This document shows, in pieces, positions 1,051-9,055 of a stretch of DNA of 9,055 nucleotides. Where the stretch lies: the IMG/VR virus record IMGVR_UViG_3300028956_000044; one strand, given 5' to 3'. Position 1 is the stretch's first letter; each line of letters opens with the position of its first letter. A program made the position numbers and the translations under genes. A model generated the notes under the pieces. It saw nothing but the letters and a program-made list of their open reading frames with translations. It ran no database searches and was not told the DNA's origin. Source of the DNA: a virus (Duplodnaviria; Heunggongvirae; Uroviricota; Caudoviricetes).

Positions 1051-1552
1051 AATTCCATCCAGCTTTTTGTTGGTATTGCTGTCGATACGCAAGCTTGAAA
1101 GCAATTGCTTTTTCTATAAGTTCGTCAGTTTCACGATCTACAACGGCAGGATCTGCAAAAAGCAGTCCGGATTCCACCACATCGCCATATTCTTTATTTA
1201 ACCCGGCGATCATGTACGTAATACTTTTTCCATCACTGATCTCACGATACAACCTGAAATCACTAATCCGGATAGCCTCCATAATCGCAGGCACTAGCGC
1301 CGTGAACTTTTCACGCTTATCCCTGGTGTCGATAGCCTTCCAGCGTTCGAATATCTTCACTCGATTAACGCCAAGCGCTCGCTGATCAACCGCGCCACCT
1401 TCATCTGTGACACGCTGAACATCGATGTTCGGGCGCTCTTTCAAAGCCCAGAATGCTTCAGTGATTAATATCGTCGCCTGCTCCTGTGTCATTCCTGGTC
1501 GACATATCCAGGCATCCAGAGCCTCACGAGCCTGTTCAGGAGTGATTTTCAT
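1031..1552 (-). CDS. 173-aa early protein in CII/YdaT position, function unknown
   Basis: ATG start (complement of 1550-1552) overlaps the dicC-like stop by 17 nt; its stop overlaps the next gene start by 20 nt (translational coupling layout). Sits immediately downstream of the Cro-like gene. No motif I can name with confidence. Confidence 0.6.
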   Translation of the reverse strand: MKITPEQAREALDAWICRPGMTQEQATILITEAFWALKERPNIDVQRVTDEGGAVDQRALGVNRVKIFERWKAIDTRDKREKFTALVPAIMEAIRISDFRLYREISDGKSITYMIAGLNKEYGDVVESGLLFADPAVVDRETDELIEKAIAFKLAYRQQYQQKAGWNYESSFC

Positions 1553-1766
1553 TGTTCAACCGCCCCGCCCGCTTCGTCTTACGATATTCATCATAAACTT
1601 TGGGATCATACTGAAGCTCCCCGCCAGATGCCTCCTGTAGACGCATCGCGCGACCTTCGGGAACTAAATCCCCTTTCCAGCTATAAAGCGAAGCCAAACG
1701 AATACCTGCTGCTTGTGCAAGTTTTGTTTTTGAACCGAAATACAAAAGAGCGTCAGTTTTAAGCAT
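1536..1766 (-). CDS. dicC: Cro-like regulator DicC
   Basis: 76-aa ORF divergent from the repressor gene, ATG at complement of 1764-1766. The length and divergent position match E. coli Qin DicC (76 aa) as I recall it. Promoter-like -35 TTGACT / 17 nt / -10 TATTTT on the minus strand (complement of 1799-1827) precedes it. Confidence 0.8.
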   Translation of the reverse strand: MLKTDALLYFGSKTKLAQAAGIRLASLYSWKGDLVPEGRAMRLQEASGGELQYDPKVYDEYRKTKRAGRLNNENHS

Positions 1767-1780
1767 TTAAAACACCTTTA

Positions 1781-1800
1781 TTGTTAGTCATGACTAACAA
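1781..1800. promoter_or_regulatory. perfect 20-bp palindrome TTGTTAGTCATGACTAACAA, probable DicA operator
   Basis: Read directly: the sequence equals its own reverse complement. It lies 15 bp upstream of the dicC start and immediately downstream of the putative dicC -10. Core TTAGTCATGACTAA (1784-1797) recurs in related form at 1834-1847 and 2330-2343. Confidence 0.65.
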
Positions 1801-1827
1801 AATAGATGTTAACAAAAACATAGTCAA
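1799..1827 (-). promoter_or_regulatory. putative sigma70 promoter for dicC
   Basis: Minus strand reads TTGACT, 17-nt spacer, TATTTT, followed directly by the 20-bp palindrome; this is the geometry expected for operator occlusion. Confidence 0.45.
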
Positions 1828-1833
1828 TACGAT

Positions 1834-1847
1834 TTAGCATTAGCTAA
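1834..1847. promoter_or_regulatory. operator-like site TTAGCATTAGCTAA immediately upstream of the dicA ATG
   Basis: 11 of 14 positions match the TTAGCCATGGCTAA palindrome and it contains the self-complementary TTAGCTAA. It ends 2 nt before the dicA start codon, suggesting autoregulation and a near-leaderless dicA transcript. Confidence 0.4.
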
Positions 1848-1849
1848 CT

Positions 1850-2257
1850 ATGGAAACAAAAAATTTAACTATCGGCGAACGCATTAGGTATCGTCGGAAA
1901 AACCTCAAACACACCCAAAGGTCTCTTGCTAAAGCCCTGAAAATCTCCCATGTGTCTGTATCACAATGGGAACGGGATGATAGTGAACCTACAGGGAAGA
2001 ACCTTTTTGCCCTCAGCAAAGTATTGCAATGCTCACCAACATGGATTCTATTTGGCGATGAAGACAAGCAACCAACACCACCTGTTGAGAAGCCAGTTGC
2101 CTTATCCCCCAAAGAACTAGAGCTCCTTGAGCTGTTTAATGCACTGCCAGAATCAGAACAGGATACCCAGCTCGCCGAAATGCGAGCTCGAGTAAAAAAC
2201 TTCAATAAACTCTTTGAAGAATTACTAAAAGCCCGTCAGCGGACAAATAAAAGATAA
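1850..2257 (+). CDS. dicA: XRE-family HTH repressor DicA (cI-like immunity repressor)
   Basis: 135-aa ORF with an N-terminal HTH segment (LKHTQRSLAKALKISHVSVSQWERD) typical of XRE/cI-type repressors. The length equals the 135 aa I recall for E. coli DicA, and it is divergent from the Cro-like gene with palindromic operators between. Confidence 0.85.
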   Translation: METKNLTIGERIRYRRKNLKHTQRSLAKALKISHVSVSQWERDDSEPTGKNLFALSKVLQCSPTWILFGDEDKQPTPPVEKPVALSPKELELLELFNALPESEQDTQLAEMRARVKNFNKLFEELLKARQRTNKR

Positions 2258-2317
2258 CATCATCAATGAGTTATCTTTTACCACATCAATCATGTTAGCC
2301 ATAACATACAAAATCAC

Positions 2318-2346
2318 TTGACCTATATGTTAGCCATGGCTAATCT
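2318..2346 (+). promoter_or_regulatory. putative DicA-repressed promoter of the rightward dicB operon, with operator palindrome TTAGCCATGGCTAA (2330-2343)
   Basis: TTGACC (2318-2323), 17-nt spacer, TAATCT (2341-2346; weak -10). A perfect 14-bp palindrome at 2330-2343 overlaps the spacer and -10, and a partial copy ATGTTAGCCAT lies at 2292-2302. Exact -10 assignment is uncertain. Confidence 0.5.
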
Positions 2347-2427
2347 TATTTACATCAACACACCGCACGGTGTTCTCAGCAAACAGTTCCGCTACCCCAG
2401 CGTTAAGGGGAAACAGAGGATTTCTCA

Positions 2428-2784
2428 GTGGGCGAAGTCAAACATCAGAATGGAAGGCGTCCAGGGATCAGCAAAGAAACAGCGATGGCGCTTTATATTG
2501 ATATCAGCGCCATTGCCGGACAGGTAAGAATTATCAGAGCGGTAACTAAGCGGTATGCGCCTTTACTTCAGAAAGTCTCTGGTGAGTGCACCGAAGATAT
2601 TGTCAACGATTTCGTCATCAAACTGCGAGGACTCATCTTCAGTTACAAGGTGACCACAATTTTTGCAGATGGCTCCCGCGAAACTGTCAGAGCCCTGCGG
2701 TTTAAAGGATGTGTCAAAGACTTCGCCACCACATTCTGGGCAAGAAAACTTGATTGTATTCATAACCAATTTCCTCTCGAGTAA
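2428..2784 (+). CDS. 118-aa ORF at the position of ydfA/ydfB in the dicB operon
   Basis: GTG start 7 nt after AGAGGA (2415-2420); first gene after the putative operon promoter. In K-12 I recall two small genes here (ydfA 51 aa, ydfB 42 aa); this window has one continuous frame. Its 3' two-thirds overlaps an antisense zinc-ribbon ORF, so the true extent is uncertain. Confidence 0.45.
   Translation: MGEVKHQNGRRPGISKETAMALYIDISAIAGQVRIIRAVTKRYAPLLQKVSGECTEDIVNDFVIKLRGLIFSYKVTTIFADGSRETVRALRFKGCVKDFATTFWARKLDCIHNQFPLE
2563..2763 (-). CDS. 66-aa Cys4 zinc-ribbon small protein, antisense to the ydfA/ydfB-equivalent region
   Basis: Minus-strand ORF MNTIKFSCPECGGEVFDTSFKPQGSDSFAGAICKNCGHLVTEDESSQFDDEIVDNIFGALTRDFLK with ATG at complement of 2761-2763, preceded by GAGAGG (complement of 2774-2779). 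Shows CPEC-x17-CKNC, a canonical zinc-ribbon spacing, followed by an acidic tail. Could still be a chance antisense frame. Confidence 0.35.
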   Translation of the reverse strand: MNTIKFSCPECGGEVFDTSFKPQGSDSFAGAICKNCGHLVTEDESSQFDDEIVDNIFGALTRDFLK

Positions 2785-2855
2785 CAGACCCCTCAGAGGA
2801 TACCACCTCGCCTGACGTGGTTAAAAGCAGGCAACGCTAACCACAAGGAGCCGAC

Positions 2856-3074
2856 ATGCAGAAACGAGAACCCGTCATCATCGCGCCAGACTATACCGAT
2901 GATGAACTTTATGAGTGGATGCGCCAGAAAATTAATGCAGCGCAGGATTTGAAATGGGCCAATGAAGCCAGGGCTAAGCAGGCTGAAAATCTGTCCGCTC
3001 TGGAGCAGGATATCACCAGGCTGGAAAAAGCAGCGGCATTAAGCATTGCCAGAATGATTACATACCCGCGTTAA
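2856..3074 (+). CDS. ydfC: YdfC-like small protein (72 aa), dicB operon
   Basis: ATG 5 nt after AAGGAG (2842-2847). The 72-aa length and position, about 340 bp upstream of DicF, match K-12 ydfC as I recall it; the protein sequence itself was not recognised. Confidence 0.6.
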   Translation: MQKREPVIIAPDYTDDELYEWMRQKINAAQDLKWANEARAKQAENLSALEQDITRLEKAAALSIARMITYPR

Positions 3075-3215
3075 TAGATAACCAACGAAGCTAAGGTTGG
3101 TAATTAAGGAGTTCTCCACGGGTGAGGTGGAGTGCGTGCGCCGGACACGGGTGAGCATCCGGCACTGACAGTTTACTGAAAGGATATTTCCCTGAAAAGT
3201 CAGACCATAACGCGA

Positions 3216-3280
3216 AAGCGCACGGCGAGGTAGCTGGTTCATAGATAGCCTGTCGTTAAATTTTCGTCGACCGTGCGCTT
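3216..3280 (+). other. RNA stem candidate: perfect 10-bp inverted repeat AAGCGCACGG / CCGTGCGCTT with 45-nt loop
   Basis: Read directly: 3216-3225 is the reverse complement of 3271-3280. Lies in the ORF-free ydfC-dicF spacer. Confidence 0.4.
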
Positions 3281-3353
3281 CCGGTTGTGGCAATCAGCGA
3301 AATGGCGCGGCGGTAAGTATGGCGGGGTTATTCCTTCCCCCGTTGAGGACACC

Positions 3354-3390
3354 GGGTTGTCAGGTTGACCATACGCTTAAGTGACAACCC
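3354..3390 (+). other. RNA stem candidate: perfect 9-bp inverted repeat GGGTTGTCA / TGACAACCC with 19-nt loop, 26 nt upstream of DicF
   Basis: Read directly: 3354-3362 is the reverse complement of 3382-3390. Confidence 0.4.
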
Positions 3391-3415
3391 CACTGCAACG
3401 CCCTCTGTTATCAAT

Positions 3416-3473
3416 TTTCTGGTGACGTTTGGCGGTATCAGTTTTACTCCGTGACTGCTCTGCCGCCCTTTTT
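3416..3473 (+). ncRNA. dicF: DicF small regulatory RNA (ftsZ-targeting sRNA of Qin-type prophages)
   Basis: The 53 nt at 3416-3468 match, to my recollection base for base, the E. coli DicF sequence. They end in a GC-rich hairpin plus a TTTTT run at 3469-3473. Position between ydfC and dicB is syntenic with K-12 Qin. Confidence 0.85.
3431..3473 (+). terminator. intrinsic terminator forming the DicF 3' end
   Basis: GGCGG (3431-3435) pairs with CCGCC (3463-3467), with an inner CAG/CTG pair, followed by CTTTTT. Confidence 0.75.
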
Positions 3474-3481
3474 AAAGTGAA

Positions 3482-3621
3482 TTTTGTGATGCGGTGAATG
3501 CGGCTAAGCGCACGCGGAACAGTTAAAACCAAAAACAGTGTTATGGGTGGATTCTCTGTATCCGGCGTTAATTGTTAACTGGTTAACGTCACCTGGAGGC
3601 ACCAGGCACCGCATCACAAAA
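3482..3621 (+). other. perfect 15-bp long-range inverted repeat bracketing the dicF-dicB spacer
   Basis: 3482-3496 TTTTGTGATGCGGTG is the exact reverse complement of 3607-3621 CACCGCATCACAAAA. Arm A starts 9 nt after the DicF T-run; arm B ends 21 nt before the dicB ATG. Confidence 0.5.
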
Positions 3622-3642
3622 CTCATTGTTGAGGGCGCGATA

Positions 3643-3831
3643 ATGAAAACGTTATTACCAAACGTTAATACGTCTGAAGGTTGTTTTGAAATTGGTGTCA
3701 CTATCAGTAATCCTGTATTTACTGAAGATGCCATTAACAAAAGAAAACACGAACGGGAGTTATTAAATAAAGTATGCATTGTTTCAATGCTGGCCCGTTT
3801 ACGTCTGATGCCAAAAGGATGTGCACAATGA
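3643..3831 (+). CDS. dicB: cell-division inhibitor DicB (62 aa)
   Basis: ATG at 3643 preceded by GAGGG (3631-3635). The 62-aa product MKTLLPNVNTSEGCFEIGVTISNPVF matches my recollection of DicB, and it sits about 170 nt downstream of DicF as in K-12. The track's 97-aa version is an in-frame GTG extension with no RBS. Confidence 0.85.
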   Translation: MKTLLPNVNTSEGCFEIGVTISNPVFTEDAINKRKHERELLNKVCIVSMLARLRLMPKGCAQ

Positions 3832-4019
3832 ATCCAGTATTTGCACTTATTCTGACGGTTTTTCTTGTTTCCGGAGAGCCAGTTGATATTGCAGTCAGTG
3901 TTCACAGAACAATGCAGGAATGTATGGCAGCAGCAACCGAACAGAAAATTCCAGGCAACTGTTATCCGGTCGATAAAGTTATTCACCAGGATAATAACGA
4001 AATCCCGGCAGGATTTTAA
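3828..4019 (+). CDS. ydfD: YdfD-like small membrane/lysis protein (63 aa)
   Basis: ATG at 3828 overlaps the dicB TGA in an ATGA junction. Hydrophobic N-terminus (MNPVFALILTVFLVSG). Length and position match K-12 ydfD as I recall it. Confidence 0.7.
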   Translation: MNPVFALILTVFLVSGEPVDIAVSVHRTMQECMAAATEQKIPGNCYPVDKVIHQDNNEIPAGF

Positions 4020-4112
4020 AACAGCACCGTAATAAATATCCAGTTTCATTCTTATATGTCAGCAATGGCAGAGATTTGTTCACCCTTAAATCTGTGATGA
4101 GGTTTACCAATA

Positions 4113-6554
4113 ATGAGCACTGATAAAGAAGAATTTGCACTATATTGCGAAGCAAAAAATGACAAAGTAAGAAAACGCCTAGGAATTAAAGGTGGTTTTT
4201 ACTGGACTACAGCAAAAAAATTATCTGTTGCAATCTCCCGCTGCATTACCGCAATGGATGACAACGATTATGATGAAGACGACTTTAAAAAACCCGTCCG
4301 CGTCAATTTGCCCGTTGTTGACGACCTTCCGCCAGAAGGCGTGTTTGATACTGAATTCTGCAACCGCTATGAAAAAGGCGGGAAAGATGGCATCACAATG
4401 ACATTTATCGGCCCTTCCCCCTCTGTTCAGGACAAACCAGCCAGCACTGACAATACCAACATCAACGGCGAAGCCATGACTGAGATTGAGGAGAGCATGC
4501 TTCTGCCTGTCTCCGGTCAGGAACTGCCCATTCGTTGGCTTGCTCAACACGGCAGCGAAAAACCAGTAACGCACGTTTCACGCGACGAACTCCAGGCATT
4601 ACACATTGCACGGGCTGAAGAACTACCGGCTGTTACTGCCCTGGCTATTTCGCATAAAACCAGTCTGCTCGACTCGCTGGAGATTCGCGACCTCCACAAA
4701 CTGGTTCGTGACACTGACAAAGTTTTCCCTAATCCTGGTAATTCAGACCTGGGACTAATAACTGCTTTTTTCGAAGCATACCTAGACGCTGACTACACTG
4801 ATCGGGGTCTGCTGACAAAAGAGTGGATGAAAGGAAATCGTGTTTCACGCATCACCCGCACGGCTTCCGGTGCTAATGCTGGCGGTGGGAACAAAACCGA
4901 TCGCAATCCGAATTTAGTACACACCCTCGACACACTGGATGTGGAGATTGCAGCAGCCACACTTCCGATGGATTTTAATATTTATGAAATTCCGGGCAGC
5001 GTTTATCGTCGCGCAAAAGAAGTAGTCCTGAACAAAGAAAGTCCGTTCAAAGAATGGTCCGCAGCACTTCGTGCAACCCCGGGTATTCTGGACTATTCCC
5101 GCGCCGCTATTTTTGCACTTATCCGAAGCGCACACCCTGAATTTTATCACTACCCGGGACGCCTTCAGGGGTATATCAACGCCTATTTGACGGAAACTGA
5201 TCACGAGAACCCCAGCAAGGAAACTCTCACAGCTGCCCGGCATACGCCGGAAAAAGATATCCTGGAAGAAATTAACCGCGAGGTGGTTACTGAGCGTGAA
5301 ACAGAAGAAGAAAAACCACAACCATCTGACGCAATGGCAGGTGAACAGGCAACAACTGAAACAATGGAACCGGATACAACTGAACATGGCCAGAACGCGC
5401 AGTCGCTGGATGCTCAGTCGCAGGTGAGTTCCGCTAACCAAGTAAAAGTCACCGCTGACGAAGTAAACAAAATTATGCAGGCAGCCAATATCAGCCAGCC
5501 TGACGCCGATAAGTTACTTGCTGTATCGCGTGGTGAATTTGTTGAGGGGATTAGCGACCCTAATGATCCGAAATGGGTCAAAGGGATCCAGACTCGCGAT
5601 TCTGTGAACCAGAACCAGCATGAATCGGAACGGAACGACCAAAAAGCGGAACAAAACAGCCCAAATGCGTTACAAAACGAGCCAGAAACGAAACAATCCG
5701 AACCAGTGGCGCAACAGGAAGTGGAAAAAGTCTGCACCGCCTGCGGTCAGACCGGCGGCGGCAACTGCCCTGATTGTGGCGCGGTGATGGGCGACGCAAC
5801 ATACCAGGAAACATTCGATGAAGAGTATCAGGTTGAAGTTCAGGAAGATGATCCGGAGGAAATGGAAGGCGCTGAACATCCACACAAGGAGAACACTGGC
5901 GGCAATCAGCATCACGATAGCGATAATGAAACTGGCGAGACGGCAGATCACTCAATTAAGGTGAACGGTCATCAAGAAATCACATCCACCAGCAGGACGT
6001 GTGACCATCTAATGATCGACCTTGAAACCATGGGAAAAAATCCTGATGCCCCGATCATCTCAATAGGTGCAATATTTTTCGATCCGCAAACCGGAGATAT
6101 GGGACCGGAATTTAGTAAGACTATCGATCTGGAAACTGCTGGCGGAGTCATTGATCGGGACACCATTAAATGGTGGCTTAAGCAATCACGCGAAGCGCAA
6201 TCTGCCATTATGACCGATGAAATCCCGTTAGATGATGCACTGTTACAATTGCGGGAATTTATCGACGAAAACTCCGGTGAATTTTTTGTTCAGGTCTGGG
6301 GAAATGGAGCCAACTTCGACAACACGATTTTGCGCCGTTCATACGAACGGCAGGGGATCCCCTGCCCGTGGCGTTACTACAACGATCGCGATGTACGCAC
6401 AATCGTTGAGCTGGGGAAAGCCATAGACTTCGATGCCAGAACGGCTATTCCATTCGAAGGTGAGCGCCATAATGCACTTGATGACGCCCGTTACCAGGCA
6501 AAATACGTTTCAGTTATCTGGCAAAAACTGATCCCGAGTCAGGCTGATTCTTAA
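4113..6554 (+). CDS. ydfE: 813-aa RecE-N-terminal-like protein with C-terminal DEDDh 3'-5' exonuclease domain (full-length YdfE-type)
   Basis: ATG at 4113 with GAGG upstream. Residues ~1-360 resemble the N-terminal region of Rac RecE as I recall it. Residues ~370-625 are acidic and low-complexity, with a C-x2-C-x7-C-x2-C knuckle (nt 5733-5777). Residues 630-813 show DEDDh motifs: MIDLETMG (D636/E638, nt 6018-6026), [10 protein letters not shown] (D736, nt 6318-6320), HNALDDARY (H786, nt 6468-6470). Gene symbol is by synteny with K-12 ydfE, where I recall only a truncated remnant. Confidence 0.85.
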
Positions 6555-6565
6555 TGTTCAACTGT

Positions 6566-6597
6566 CGCCGGTTGTGACTGGTATTCTGCAACCGGCG
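6566..6597 (+). other. perfect 9-bp stem-loop CGCCGGTTG / CAACCGGCG between the exonuclease gene and xis; no U-run
   Basis: Read directly: 6566-6574 is the reverse complement of 6589-6597, with a 14-nt loop. No T-tract follows, so it is not a canonical intrinsic terminator. Confidence 0.4.
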
Positions 6598-6626
6598 CTC
6601 GTCTGATGTAAGAGATAAAGAAATCG

Positions 6627-6878
6627 ATGAGCGAAGTAATCATGATTGTCTCTCCCGGCAAATGGGTATCCGAAGAGCAGTTAATTGCGCTGAAAGGAAT
6701 AAAAAAAGGTACGTTAAAAAAGGCCCGGGAAAAATCGTTTATGGAAGGAAGGGAATATAAGCATGTCGCTCATGACGGTATGCCATGGGATAACAGTCCA
6801 TGCTTTTACAACCTGGAAGAAATTGATCGCTGGATTGAGCGCCAGGCATCAGCGAGACCAAGACGTCATCTTACTTGA
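6627..6878 (+). CDS. excisionase-like protein (Xis)
   Basis: 83-aa ORF ending 20 bp upstream of the integrase. Contains GREYKHVAH, reminiscent of the GREY-containing winged-helix of lambda Xis. An alternative start at the Met at 6642 is possible. Confidence 0.55.
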   Translation: MSEVIMIVSPGKWVSEEQLIALKGIKKGTLKKAREKSFMEGREYKHVAHDGMPWDNSPCFYNLEEIDRWIERQASARPRRHLT

Positions 6879-6897
6879 CTAAAAGCCACACTAACTA

Positions 6898-8193
6898 ATG
6901 AGAGAAGTTGAAATGAAATATCCGACAGGCGTGGAAAACCATGGAGGGAAATTACGTATCTGGTTTGTTTATAAAGGCGTAAGAGTCAGGGAAAATCTGG
7001 GGGTTCCTGACACATCAAAAAACAGGCGCGTTGCAGGTGAACTACGCTCCTCTGTTTGTTACGCAATAAAAACTGGTGTTTTCGACTATGCAAAACAGTT
7101 TCCCTCCTCACGCAATCTGGAAAAATTTGGTGAGGCCCGACAAGATTTAACCATAAAAGAACTGGCTGAAAAATTTTTGGCACTGAAAGAAACTGAAGTC
7201 GCCAAAACATCACTCAACACATACCGTGCCGTCATCAAAAATATCCTGAGCATAATCGGTGAAAAAAATCTTGCCTCATCGATTAATAAAGAAAAATTAC
7301 TGGAGGTTCGTAAAGAGCTACTGACTGGATACCAGATCCCCAAAAGTAACTATATTGTTACACAACCAGGGAGATCGGCTGTAACTGTAAATAATTACAT
7401 GACAAATCTTAACGCCGTGTTCCAGTTTGGTGTTGATAACGGTTACCTGGCAGATAATCCGTTTAAGGGGATCTCGCCATTAAAGGAATCAAGAACCATT
7501 CCGGATCCTCTTTCGCGGGAGGAATTTATCCGTCTTATCGATGCGTGCAGAAATCAGCAAGCAAAAAATTTATGGTGTGTTTCTGTTTATACTGGCGTTC
7601 GCCCTGGTGAGCTGTGTGCACTTGGATGGGAGGACATAGATCTGAAAAATGGAACAATGATGATCAGGAGAAATTTAGCAAAAGACCGTTTCACGGTACC
7701 AAAAACACAGGCGGGAACCAATCGGGTCATTCATCTTATTAAGCCAGCAATCGACGCTCTCCGGAGTCAGATGACATTAACGAGACTGAGCAAAGAGCAT
7801 ATCATTGATGTTCACCTCAGAGAGTATGGCAGAACAGAAAAACAAAAATGCACCTTTGTTTTTCAACCTGAAGTGTCAGCGAGAGTAAAAAATTATGGTG
7901 ACCATTTTACCGTTGACTCAATAAGGCAGATGTGGGACGCAGCGATAAAACGTGCCGGACTCCGCCATCGAAAATCATATCAGTCGAGACATACTTATGC
8001 CTGCTGGTCGCTGACAGCTGGTGCTAACCCGGCATTTATAGCAAACCAGATGGGCCATGCAGATGCGCAAATGGTATTTCAGGTATACGGAAAATGGATG
8101 TCTGAAAACAATAATGCACAGGTAGCTTTGTTAAATACACAGTTAAGCGAGTTTGCCCCAACCATGCCCCATAACGAAGCAATGAAAAATTAA
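6898..8193 (+). CDS. intQ: tyrosine site-specific integrase (Rac IntR-like; intact IntQ-type)
   Basis: 431-aa ORF. Tyrosine-recombinase catalytic segment visible: HRKSYQSRHTYACWSLTAGANP ... VFQVYGKWM. The MKYPTGVENHGGKLRIWF N-terminus resembles the Rac IntR family as I recall it. The second ATG at 6913 may be the true start. Symbol is by position next to rspB; K-12 intQ is, as I recall, a pseudogene. Confidence 0.9.
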   Translation: MREVEMKYPTGVENHGGKLRIWFVYKGVRVRENLGVPDTSKNRRVAGELRSSVCYAIKTGVFDYAKQFPSSRNLEKFGEARQDLTIKELAEKFLALKETEVAKTSLNTYRAVIKNILSIIGEKNLASSINKEKLLEVRKELLTGYQIPKSNYIVTQPGRSAVTVNNYMTNLNAVFQFGVDNGYLADNPFKGISPLKESRTIPDPLSREEFIRLIDACRNQQAKNLWCVSVYTGVRPGELCALGWEDIDLKNGTMMIRRNLAKDRFTVPKTQAGTNRVIHLIKPAIDALRSQMTLTRLSKEHIIDVHLREYGRTEKQKCTFVFQPEVSARVKNYGDHFTVDSIRQMWDAAIKRAGLRHRKSYQSRHTYACWSLTAGANPAFIANQMGHADAQMVFQVYGKWMSENNNAQVALLNTQLSEFAPTMPHNEAMKN

Positions 8194-8336
8194 TTTAATA
8201 TTTATCAAATAGTTAACACGCATGACTCTTGAAATCCATAAATTCAAGCGCAGTGCCCAGCCATCCCGATACTGCTGCTTTCACCAAATCCTTAGTGCTT
8301 CTTTCATGTTTTTCTATTGTCATAATGGTTATCTCT

Positions 8337-8367
8337 AAAAAAGAGGTAAGATGCGTACTACTTACTC
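8337..8367 (-). terminator. putative intrinsic terminator of the rspB-like gene
   Basis: Minus-strand RNA after the stop folds GAGUAAG / loop of 10 nt / CUUAC(C)CUC (7 bp with one bulge), followed by UUUUUU (plus-strand A-run 8337-8342). Confidence 0.5.
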
Positions 8368-8380
8368 GCCGTTATTGGTA

Positions 8381-9055
8381 TTATTCAGAAAAAGTGAGTA
8401 AGACTTTGCAGCAATGTTTTTGATCCTGTTCAAATAAACTAATGGCATCAGCAACATGCTGGAAATCAAACGTATGGGTAATTAATTTTTCTGGTTTAAT
8501 TAACCCTTTACTTAACCAGTCGATAACAACCGGAAATTTATTTGCATTTAAGCGTGAAGAGAAAATAGAGAGTTCTTTTCCGGTAATTCCTTGCTGAATC
8601 ACTTCAGACGGTTCACTGGAGAAGCCCATCAATACAATACGTGCCGCTGGAGAAGCCAGCGTTACGGCCTCTTTCAGGATAGAAGGATGACAAGCCGCAT
8701 CGATAATTAATGTCGGCTTGATGCCTTTTTCAGCGAAAATCTCGCCAAGCGGTGTCTGGCTGTTATTGATCGCCCAGTCTGCCCCGCTCTCTTTCGCTTT
8801 TTCCAGTCGTTCATCAATGCGATCGGCAACAATCACATTTTTAACGTTATAGACGCCTTTTAATACCTGAACGATCGTCAGGCCGATTGGACCGGCACCA
8901 TAAACCAGAACGGTATCATTTTCAGTCGGTTGACCATGTCCGGTTACGTTAGCCGCAATGGTAAAAGGTTCGATCATTACCGCATATTGATCGGCCACTG
9001 CTTCAGGAATTTTCCACGCATTTTTTGCCGGAACCACGGCATATTCACTGAAACC
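8381..9055 (-). CDS. rspB: zinc-dependent medium-chain dehydrogenase, C-terminal part (RspB-like); 5' end beyond window
   Basis: ORF open to the window edge on the minus strand. Rossmann nucleotide-binding segment VLVYGAGPIGL visible. Convergent with the integrase; rspB assignment rests on recalled K-12 synteny (intQ adjacent to rspB) and was not checked by alignment. Confidence 0.7.
   Translation of the reverse strand, partial: GFSEYAVVPAKNAWKIPEAVADQYAVMIEPFTIAANVTGHGQPTENDTVLVYGAGPIGLTIVQVLKGVYNVKNVIVADRIDERLEKAKESGADWAINNSQTPLGEIFAEKGIKPTLIIDAACHPSILKEAVTLASPAARIVLMGFSSEPSEVIQQGITGKELSIFSSRLNANKFPVVIDWLSKGLIKPEKLITHTFDFQHVADAISLFEQDQKHCCKVLLTFSE

What the first reader, a model, noticed from the sequence alone, without database searches (positions are those of the whole stretch)
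4113..8193. Intact version of a module that is degraded in K-12 Qin
By my recollection, in E. coli K-12 the ydfE region is interrupted by an IS2 copy and intQ is a pseudogene. Here the nuclease gene is a single 813-aa frame, an excisionase-like ORF is present and the integrase is a full 431-aa frame with catalytic motifs. This prophage arm may be excision-competent and the nuclease functional, making this strain a better model than K-12.
Basis: partly seen in the sequence, partly recalled or inferred. Interest (0 to 1): 0.5.

Follow-up and report, generated by a model that had tools for sequence, protein, structure and literature searches.

The report
Intact Qin-type prophage exo-xis-int arm
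This is the ordinary, undamaged integrase end of a Qin-type lambdoid prophage inserted in the E. coli ydfJ gene; K-12 has lost part of it, but about 43% of complete E. coli genomes and several viable phages carry it intact, so it is not new.

Summary
Window 4113-8193 encodes an 813-aa exonuclease, an 83-aa excisionase and a 426/431-aa tyrosine integrase, all uninterrupted, next to rspB.

In K-12 MG1655, ydfE, insD7 and intQ are annotated pseudogenes around a 706-bp IS2E remnant. Alignment shows K-12 lost 2,184 bp there: the 3' 1.7 kb of the exonuclease gene, all of xis and the first 121 bp of int.

- **xis and int:** these are the intact versions of what K-12 lost. Xis is identical and Int 99% identical to those of the deposited phage Tritos. 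The 11-bp att core (8233-8243) and the prophage/ydfJ junction are exact.
- **The nuclease gene:** it is not the intact form of K-12 ydfE. Its 5' 1.33 kb is a Rac-recE-like segment with no similarity to the 765-bp K-12 remnant. The true intact ydfE is an 823-aa allele, found in strain EA13 and phage Tritos.
- **The enzyme:** it has a RecE-like N-terminal region fused to a DEDDh 3'-5' exonuclease domain. It is not exonuclease VIII.
- **Rarity:** the intact xis-int arm is in 2,358 of 5,426 complete E. coli genomes; the K-12 lesion is in 342.
- **Induction:** DicA has no self-cleavage domain, so SOS induction is not expected.

Already known; low interest.

The parts
4113..6554 (+). 813-aa exonuclease gene in the 'exo' slot of the dicBF (PL-like) operon. 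It is a mosaic: a RecE-like non-catalytic N-terminal region plus a C-terminal DEDDh 3'-5' exonuclease domain.
   Evidence: ORF. Pfam Exonuc_VIII plus Rv2179c-like. PHROG 607/2082/20376. 59% aa identity to K-12 RecE aa 50-591. The exact protein is found on 3 public contigs.
4113..5442 (+). Rac-recE-like 5' segment of the exonuclease gene (codons 1-443). It is absent from K-12 Qin and from the 823-aa ydfE allele.
   Evidence: No blastn match to the K-12 Qin region. No BLASTP match to the K-12 YdfE remnant. nt 4451-4904 are 91.9% identical to K-12 recE. Homology to EA13 and Tritos starts at 5443.
5443..6554 (+). 3' segment shared with the 823-aa ydfE-type allele, and the part K-12 has deleted. 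It contains a CxxC...CxxC zinc-ribbon motif (aa 541-556) and the DEDDh domain.
   Evidence: 98.9% identical to EA13. 18 nt and 5 aa differences from phage Tritos; dN/dS about 0.1.
6006..6521 (+). DEDDh 3'-5' exonuclease domain (aa 632-803). Candidate catalytic residues are D636, E638, D736, H786 and D791.
   Evidence: PF16473 covering 2-177/177, E 1.2e-67. Motif positions located. phmmer hit to PDB 8kel 'Exodeoxyribonuclease' aligning the DxE and FD motifs.
6565..6598 (+). Intergenic inverted repeat CGCCGGTTG-N16-CAACCGGCG between exo and xis. It coincides with the point where other phages switch to a different xis/int module.
   Evidence: Sequence. Fold -19 kcal/mol, z -2.3. Homology breakpoints at 6562 or 6598 in viral contigs and phages.
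6627..6878 (+). xis, an 83-aa excisionase of the DUF1233 family. The gene is absent from K-12 Qin.
   Evidence: Pfam PF06806, E 1.6e-31. phrog_539 excisionase. 0 nt differences from phage Tritos and strain EA13. Lies inside the 2,184 bp missing in K-12.
6913..8193 (+). int, a tyrosine integrase of 426 aa (431 aa if the upstream ATG at 6898 is used). It has an N-terminal arm-binding domain and a C-terminal catalytic domain. Catalytic positions are R230, K264, Y356 (in the first-His position), R359, H382 and Y392.
   Evidence: ORF. Pfam. Alignment to Tn1549 Int 6emy. 99% identical to Tritos Int and 44% to Rac IntR, with all catalytic positions invariant. K-12 intQ homology starts only at 7034.
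8194..8232 (+). Phage arm of the attachment site between the int stop codon and the core. The arm probably extends back into the 3' end of int.
   Evidence: Matches the int-side arm of the reconstructed attP in phage Tritos, with 2 mismatches.
8233..8243 (+). 11-bp att core GAAATCCATAA, the int-proximal prophage/chromosome junction.
   Evidence: The same 11-mer sits at both ends of the 45-kb prophage in strain MEI1O2-23. The reconstructed attB is 100% identical to the empty ydfJ site, and that junction is contiguous (>=80% coverage) in 2,009 of 5,426 genomes. Tritos attP carries GAAATGCATAA flanked by the two prophage arms.
8244..8323 (-). The first ~27 codons of host gene ydfJ, cut off by the insertion. 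K-12 annotates this as part of 'ynfP'. rspB follows from 8381 on the minus strand.
   Evidence: Reconstruction of intact ydfJ. K-12 ynfP coordinates map to window 8213..8323. PMC6379469 reports Qin integration at the 5' end of ydfJ.

Best explanation
Window 4113-8243 is the integrase-proximal arm of a Qin-type lambdoid prophage (mEp460/Tritos-like). The prophage is integrated by site-specific recombination into the 5' end of the host transporter gene ydfJ, next to rspB.

Gene order is dicA/dicC switch, ydfC, DicF, dicB, ydfD, exonuclease, xis, int, att. This corresponds to the lambda PL operon running into xis-int-attP.

Likely mechanism (inferred):
1. DicA repression of dicBp is lifted, by the DicC switch or a Rem-type antirepressor rather than by RecA cleavage.
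2. Transcription reads through the exonuclease gene into xis and int.
3. Int recombines the two 11-bp cores. It binds arm sites through its N-terminal domain and cleaves with R230/K264/R359/H382/Y392, while Xis directs the reaction towards excision.
4. ydfJ is restored and a circular phage genome with attP is released.

The exonuclease carries a RecE-like N-terminal ~615 aa, whose function is unknown. In place of RecE's 5'-3' nuclease domain it has a DEDDh 3'-5' exonuclease domain, and no RecT/Bet-type partner gene follows. It is therefore most likely a 3'-5' exonuclease acting on DNA ends during the lytic cycle, not a RecET recombinase.

K-12 Qin is a derivative of a sister allele of this arm. 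An IS2-associated deletion removed most of the exonuclease gene, all of xis and the start of int.

Shown here: ORF integrity, domains, catalytic residues, exact att junctions, identity to deposited phages and the K-12 deletion endpoints. Inferred: transcription from dicBp, enzymatic activities and excision in this particular strain.
For: - ORFs and domains.
- Synteny with K-12 Qin and DicF.
- K-12 deletion mapped against strain EA13 as L003 6768..8951 (2,184 bp) replaced by IS2E.
- att core and attB reconstruction, 100% identical to the empty site.
- attP in phage Tritos built from the two prophage arms.
- Phage records with the same exo-3'/xis/int/attP at 97-99% identity (HannyBb, Tritos, PhiR42_1, mEp460_ev081).
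- Xis identical and Int 99% identical to Tritos, catalytic positions invariant also in Rac IntR.
- A complete 45-kb prophage (terminase through tail fibre) between rspB and ydfJ in a close relative, MEI1O2-23.
- Purifying selection on the DEDDh-containing part, dN/dS about 0.1.
- No intrinsic-terminator signal above background between ydfD and int.
- Literature: Qin excision undetected in K-12, attributed there to an inactive intQ (PMC3105296). Qin inserts at the 5' end of ydfJ and is present in 48% of strains (PMC6379469). DicA is not RecA-cleavable, and functional phage mEp460_ev081 carries dicB, dicF, dicAC and rem (bioRxiv 10.1101/2023.04.14.536235).
Against: - The far (ydfJ-side) junction and the late genes of this strain's prophage lie outside the 9-kb window, so completeness is unknown.
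- The source genome was not found. The best complete genome is 97.7% identical over 95% of the window and the best draft contig is 99.8% over 2386-9055.
- Int has Tyr where most tyrosine recombinases have the first catalytic His. IntR of Rac, which excises in K-12 (PMC3105296), shares this Tyr.
- No experiment here shows transcription, nuclease activity or excision.
- The exonuclease N-terminal part evolves fast: 40 aa differences from the closest complete-genome allele, dN/dS about 0.5.
Confidence: 0.85

Rival explanations
1. The arm is intact, but the prophage as a whole is 'grounded' in this strain. The far att site, late genes or regulatory inputs are lost, so xis and int are intact relics and no excision or phage production occurs.
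For: Qin-locus prophages range from 11 to 97 kb and many are degraded (PMC6379469). The window shows only 9 kb. The region left of dicC differs from K-12 and is only 85-96% identical to relatives, which shows heavy mosaicism.
Against: The most similar complete genome carries a full 45-kb prophage with both cores. The replication genes in the window (O-like, YdaT-like) are intact ORFs. Int and xis show no decay at all.
Confidence: 0.3
2. The 813-aa protein is exodeoxyribonuclease VIII (RecE), a 5'-3' dsDNA exonuclease for RecET-type recombination, as several phage records annotate it.
For: Phage records and PHROG 607 name it exonuclease VIII. Pfam Exonuc_VIII matches. 59% identity to RecE over aa 58-615.
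Against: - The similarity to RecE stops at RecE residue 591.
- The NCBIfam RecE equivalog model matches only positions 1-602 of 877 and scores 944, below its cut-off of 1269.
- The C-terminus is instead a complete DEDDh domain.
- No recT-like gene follows; the next gene is xis.
Confidence: 0.03
3. One reading: the window is simply the undamaged ancestor-type copy of the K-12 ydfE-xis-intQ module.
For: Same chromosomal site, same flanking genes, and 99.4% identity from 7034 to rspB.
Against: The K-12 ydfE remnant and the window gene share no sequence. K-12 aligns end to end with the 823-aa allele of EA13 at 98.3% and 99.4% on either side of IS2E. The window carries a different, recE-like 5' 1.33 kb.
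Confidence: 0.1

Closest known systems
Cryptic prophage Qin of E. coli K-12 (ydfE'-IS2E-intQ', b1577-b1579)
   Same: Same integration site (5' end of ydfJ, next to rspB). Same dicC-dicA-ydfC-DicF-dicB-ydfD order. The int 3' 1.16 kb and the junction are 99.4% identical.
   Different: K-12 lacks 2,184 bp (exo 3' part, xis, int 5' 121 bp) and has a 706-bp IS2 remnant in their place. The surviving K-12 ydfE 5' fragment belongs to a different allele, with no similarity to the window gene. K-12's ydfA/ydfB are replaced in the window by other DNA (2414-2855).
Temperate phages Tritos (OV696610), HannyBb (PP925841), PhiR42_1 (PV340562) and mEp460_ev081 (LR597641)
   Same: DicF-dicB-ydfD-exo-xis-int-attP order. 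Window 5443-8241 is 97-99% identical to them. Xis is identical and Int 99% identical to Tritos. The attP arms and core correspond.
   Different: These phages carry the 823-aa (K-12-type) exonuclease allele, so the window's 5' 1.33 kb differs. The Tritos core has one mismatch (GAAATGCATAA).
Rac prophage recE-recT-...-xisR-intR arm of K-12
   Same: The exonuclease N-terminal ~560 aa is 59% identical to RecE, and one 454-nt stretch is 91.9% identical at DNA level. Int is 43% identical to IntR with the same catalytic residues, including the Tyr in the first-His position. Both have an excisionase directly upstream of int.
   Different: A DEDDh 3'-5' domain replaces RecE's C-terminal nuclease domain. 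There is no recT. Xis is only 26% identical to XisR. The attachment site differs (ydfJ versus ttcA).
Bacteriophage lambda PL arm (exo-bet-gam ... xis-int-attP)
   Same: The position and logic are the same: a repressor-controlled leftward operon ending in a nuclease gene, xis, int and attP. Int has an arm-binding domain (established knowledge of lambda).
   Different: Unrelated nuclease type. No annealase or Gam. The repressor (DicA) has no RecA-dependent self-cleavage domain. The insertion lies inside a coding gene.

Membership tests
Tyrosine recombinase / lambda-type phage integrase | Catalytic residues R-K-H-R-H/W-Y in the C-terminal domain | tested here: met
   R230, K264, R359, H382 and Y392 are present by alignment to Tn1549 Int and invariant across Tritos, EA13, K-12 and Rac IntR. 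The first His position is Tyr (Y356), as in IntR; this is a variant of the motif, not a lesion specific to this copy.
Tyrosine recombinase / lambda-type phage integrase | N-terminal arm-type DNA-binding domain | tested here: met
   PF12167 Arm-DNA-bind_2, aa 9-72 of the 431-aa frame, E 1.5e-23. K-12 IntQ lacks its first ~40 residues.
Tyrosine recombinase / lambda-type phage integrase | Adjacent attachment site with a short core repeated at both prophage ends and present in attB and attP | tested here: met
   The 11-bp core lies at 8233-8243. The same core is at both ends of the prophage in MEI1O2-23. attB is confirmed by the empty ydfJ site, contiguous in 2,009 genomes. attP is confirmed in phage Tritos. 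The far end in the source strain itself was not available.
Tyrosine recombinase / lambda-type phage integrase | Recombination activity | not testable with these tools
   Inferred only, from 99% identity to the Int of a deposited phage.
Excisionase (DUF1233 family) | Small protein matching the family profile, encoded directly upstream of int | tested here: met
   PF06806 covering 1-69/70, E 1.6e-31. phrog_539. The gene ends 34 nt before the int ATG at 6913. Only 26% identical to K-12 XisR.
RecE / exodeoxyribonuclease VIII | Full-length match above the curated equivalog cut-off, including the C-terminal nuclease domain | tested here: not met
   NF007259 matches profile positions 1-602 of 877 and scores 944.4, below its cut-off of 1269. 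BLASTP similarity ends at RecE residue 591.
RecE / exodeoxyribonuclease VIII | Adjacent recT annealase partner | tested here: not met
   The next ORF downstream is xis, and no RecT/Bet-like ORF lies between ydfD and int.
DEDDh 3'-5' exonuclease (Pfam Rv2179c-like, PF16473) | Complete domain with DxE, D and Hx4D motifs | tested here: met
   Profile 2-177/177, 227 bits against a cut-off of 27. IDLET at 635, NFD at 734-736 and HNALDD at 786-791. The first two motifs align with PDB 8kel 'Exodeoxyribonuclease'. The substrate (DNA or RNA) was not tested.
Qin prophage (K-12 definition) | Integration at ydfJ/rspB with the dicAC-dicBF immunity/early region | tested here: met
   (DicF, 76.7 bits).
Qin prophage (K-12 definition) | ydfE allele homologous to b1577 | tested here: not met
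   No DNA or protein similarity between the K-12 remnant and the window gene. The homologous 3' part is exactly what K-12 has deleted.

The most novel reading that the evidence does not exclude
The RecE-N-terminus::DEDDh exonuclease has two N-terminal alleles and occurs in thousands of E. coli prophages and in viable phages, always without an annealase partner. It could be an uncharacterised class of lambdoid early protein. In that reading, the conserved middle region (zinc ribbon plus acidic tract) and the swappable N-terminal region act as a targeting scaffold that can carry nucleases of opposite polarity, with a role such as end processing or counter-defence that differs from RecET/Red recombination. 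No functional study of ydfE or its intact relatives turned up in the searchable literature.
Probability: 0.15. Interest if true: 0.45.

Novelty: already known. Interest (0 to 1): 0.1.

Why it matters
It matters little beyond housekeeping. The result clarifies three points:
- K-12 Qin cannot excise because an IS2-associated 2.2-kb deletion removed xis and the start of int.
- The wild-type state of this arm is common in E. coli and is present in culturable phages, which are better experimental models than any single lysogen.
- 'ydfE' exists as at least two N-terminal alleles, so K-12's fragment should not be equated with the window's gene.

The only open biological question touched here is what the widespread RecE-like/DEDDh exonuclease does.

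Tried and rejected
- **Finding the source genome.** No complete E. coli genome is identical; the best is 97.7% over 95% of the window. An exact 40-mer scan of the GTDB species representatives gave 0 hits. The same 40-mer hit 52 IMG/VR contigs, none of them the source. An exact-protein look-up found 3 contigs, the best 99.8% identical over 2386-9055 but different further left.
- **Promoters and terminators inside the module.** Counts were at or below shuffled expectation, so they give no evidence for or against internal signals.
- **Arm-type Int sites.** A TGCCCCA-like repeat is present on both arms of Tritos attP, but the 8-mer ATGCCCCA occurs only once in the window and that is not above chance. 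Left as unverified.
- **Literature on ydfE, Rv2179c-like prophage nucleases and RecE/DEDDh fusions.** Nothing functional was found.
- **Reading the 813-aa protein as RecE.** Rejected.
- **SOS as the inducer.** Rejected on domain content and published data.


Full report
**1. What is in the window**

The six-frame ORF list confirms three co-directional open frames at the stated coordinates:
- 4113..6554, 813 aa.
- 6627..6878, 83 aa.
- 6898..8193, 431 aa. Annotated relatives and phage Tritos start at the ATG equivalent to 6913 (426 aa), which has a GAGAG motif 7 nt upstream.

Pfam assigns these domains:
- First protein: an Exonuc_VIII segment (aa 57-189, E 1.5e-35) and a complete Rv2179c-like DEDDh exonuclease domain (aa 632-803, E 1.2e-67).
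- Second protein: DUF1233 'putative excisionase' (E 1.6e-31).
- Third protein: an arm-type DNA-binding domain plus the Phage_integrase catalytic domain.

PHROGs agrees, giving exonuclease, excisionase and integrase families.

Upstream lie dicC (1536..1766, minus strand), dicA (1850..2257), ydfC (2856..3074), DicF (3417..3468; Rfam 76.7 bits), dicB (about 3643..3831) and ydfD (3828..4019). Downstream lie a fragment of ydfJ and then rspB. This is the early and integration arm of a Qin-type lambdoid prophage.

**2. The K-12 comparison**

The RefSeq MG1655 record lists ydfE, insD7 and intQ as pseudogenes and a 706-bp IS2E element between them.

blastn of the window against that K-12 region gives three blocks:
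- window 1273-2413, 98.6% identical.
- window 2856-4104, 95.9% identical.
- window 7034-9055, 99.4% identical. This block begins immediately after IS2E.

Window 4105-7033 has no K-12 counterpart.

To see what K-12 lost, I took a genome carrying the K-12-type ydfE 5' end in intact form, strain EA13. It encodes an 823-aa exonuclease, the 83-aa Xis and a 426-aa Int next to rspB. K-12 aligns with it at 98.3% up to the IS2E left end and at 99.4% from the IS2E right end. The gap is 2,184 bp of EA13, made up of:
- the last 1,705 bp of the exonuclease gene,
- all of xis,
- the first 121 bp of int.

K-12 IntQ therefore lacks about 40 N-terminal residues of the arm-binding domain, and K-12 has no xis. 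This fits the report that Qin excision is undetectable in K-12, which that paper attributes to an inactive intQ (PMC3105296).

**3. The nuclease gene is a different allele, not 'intact ydfE'**

- The 255-aa K-12 remnant has no significant BLASTP similarity to the 813-aa protein; the best E-value is 3.2.
- The window gene and the 823-aa allele are nearly identical from window 5443 onward: 98.9% at DNA level, with 5-8 aa differences. Upstream of that point they are unrelated or only faintly similar.
- The window's first 1.33 kb resembles recE of the Rac prophage. Identity is 59% over RecE residues 50-591, and nt 4451-4904 are 91.9% identical to K-12 recE.
- The similarity ends where RecE's C-terminal region begins. 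The NCBIfam RecE equivalog model matches only positions 1-602 of 877 and falls below its cut-off, 944 against 1269 bits.
- The C-terminus instead has the DEDDh motifs: IDLET at 635, NFD at 734-736 and HNALDD at 786-791. A phmmer hit to PDB 8kel, 'Exodeoxyribonuclease', aligns the first two motifs.
- No annealase gene follows.

The protein is thus a RecE-like N-terminal region fused to a 3'-5' exonuclease domain. The 'exonuclease VIII' label in some phage records is not supported.

The piece of ydfE that K-12 retains is exactly the piece the window does not share.

**4. The attachment site**

The closest complete genome, soil strain MEI1O2-23, carries a 45-kb prophage between rspB and a 5'-truncated ydfJ. 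It has terminase, portal, capsid, tail, lysis, Q, O-like and dic genes. The only 11-mer found shared between the two end regions of that prophage (about 280 bp and 1 kb compared) is TTATGGATTTC.

Joining the two host flanks across one copy gives a 431-bp sequence that is 100% identical to the uninterrupted ydfJ-rspB region of other strains. That junction is contiguous, at >=80% coverage, in 2,009 of 5,426 complete genomes.

In the window the core is GAAATCCATAA at 8233-8243. Host ydfJ codons 1 to about 27 lie on the minus strand up to 8323; K-12 annotates this stretch as part of ynfP.

Phage Tritos has the matching attP: the window's int-side arm, the core with one mismatch, then the far-side prophage arm. 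The junction in the window is therefore a precise product of Int-mediated integration. This agrees with PMC6379469, which places Qin at the 5' end of ydfJ.

**5. Is the arm functional?**

- Xis has no nucleotide differences from phage Tritos or strain EA13. Int differs from Tritos Int at 4 of 426 residues.
- The catalytic positions R230, K264, R359, H382 and Y392 are present and invariant out to Rac IntR.
- The first-His position is Tyr in all of them, including IntR of Rac, which excises in K-12 (PMC3105296). It is therefore not a defect of this copy.
- Window 5443-8241 is 97-99% identical to four deposited phages: HannyBb, Tritos, PhiR42_1 from ECOR13, and mEp460_ev081. The last is described as a functional temperate phage carrying dicB, dicF, dicAC and rem (bioRxiv 10.1101/2023.04.14.536235).
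- The DEDDh-containing part of the exonuclease gene is under purifying selection, with dN/dS about 0.1.

These points make activity of Int, Xis and the nuclease likely, but they remain inferences. The far att site and the late genes of this strain are outside the window, and the source genome could not be located.

**6. How it probably works**

By analogy with the lambda PL operon, and consistent with the lack of terminator signal above background between ydfD and int, derepression of dicBp would transcribe ydfC-DicF-dicB-ydfD-exo-xis-int. Int and Xis would then recombine the two cores, restore ydfJ and release the circular phage.

DicA here is a 135-aa HTH-only protein. Published work shows the following:
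- DicA lacks the RecA cleavage site.
- Derepression occurs through the DicC switch, the Rem antirepressor, urea or high temperature.

dicA inactivation is a sound test.

**7. How common is it?**

- The xis-int-junction segment (window 6600-8330) is present at >=80% coverage in 2,358 of 5,426 complete E. coli genomes. One is 100% identical, and ATCC 8739 is 99.5% identical.
- The K-12 ydfE'-IS2E-intQ' configuration is in 342 genomes; the two listed that carry it in full are K-12 W3110 and strain ER1709.
- The K-12-type ydfE 5' end is in 3,840 genomes, usually inside an annotated intact exonuclease gene.
- The window's full exo-xis-int combination is in 177 genomes at up to 98.2% identity.
- The exact window-type exonuclease gene (99.7%) also occurs in phages that carry other integration modules. 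The breakpoints fall at 6562 or 6598, on an intergenic hairpin.

The region is an ordinary mosaic of lambdoid modules.

**8. Verdict**

The intact state is the common wild-type state and is already represented by sequenced, viable phages and by the literature on Qin. Novelty: already known. Interest is low.

The only loose thread with any promise is the untested function of the widespread RecE-like/DEDDh exonuclease.

Noticed in passing
window 2414-2855 (ORF 2563..2769, minus strand): K-12's ydfA/ydfB are replaced by unrelated DNA carrying an opposite-strand 68-aa CxxC...CxxC zinc-ribbon ORF (phrog_4852, unknown function) inside the dicBF operon leader. A 40-mer from the left edge of this segment (window 2400-2439) is in 52 IMG/VR contigs.
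   Followed up: partly
window 6565-6598: Inverted repeat CGCCGGTTG-N16-CAACCGGCG between the exonuclease stop and the xis start (RNA fold -19 kcal/mol, z -2.3). Several phages and viral contigs share the exonuclease gene up to 6562 or 6598 and then carry a different xis/int module, so the hairpin marks a module-exchange junction.
   Followed up: partly
window 8213-8323 (minus strand); K-12 ynfP b4534: The K-12 'gene' ynfP is the first ~27 codons of ydfJ read across the att core into phage DNA. It is a by-product of prophage insertion rather than an independent gene.
   Followed up: partly
window 7978-7980 (Int Y356): The integrase has Tyr where most tyrosine recombinases have the first catalytic His. 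The same Tyr is in Rac IntR and in the Int of phage Tritos, so it is a family trait.
   Followed up: partly
window 8153-8173 and L061 5919-5950 (phage Tritos attP): TGCCCCA-like repeats occur inside the int 3' end and on the other attP arm. They are candidate arm-type Int-binding sites but are not statistically supported.
   Followed up: partly
window 4113-5442 versus 5443-6554: The exonuclease N-terminal region evolves much faster than the DEDDh-containing 3' part. The window differs from strain TUM14759 at 40 aa with whole-gene dN/dS about 0.5, against about 0.1 for the 3' part. It also exists as at least two unrelated alleles on one conserved C-terminal half.
   Followed up: partly
L008 11793-13432 (E. 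coli MEI1O2-23 prophage): The related complete prophage carries Kiwa anti-phage genes (KwaA/KwaB-like) and QueH between the replication genes and hokD, a defence-cargo island absent from K-12 Qin.
   Followed up: no
L005 7681-8019 (GCA_021452845.1 contig): A contig 99.8% identical to window 2386-9055 has a Peptidase_S24 (self-cleaving, CI-like) repressor in place of DicA. The same integration arm is therefore coupled to SOS-inducible immunity regions in other strains.
   Followed up: no
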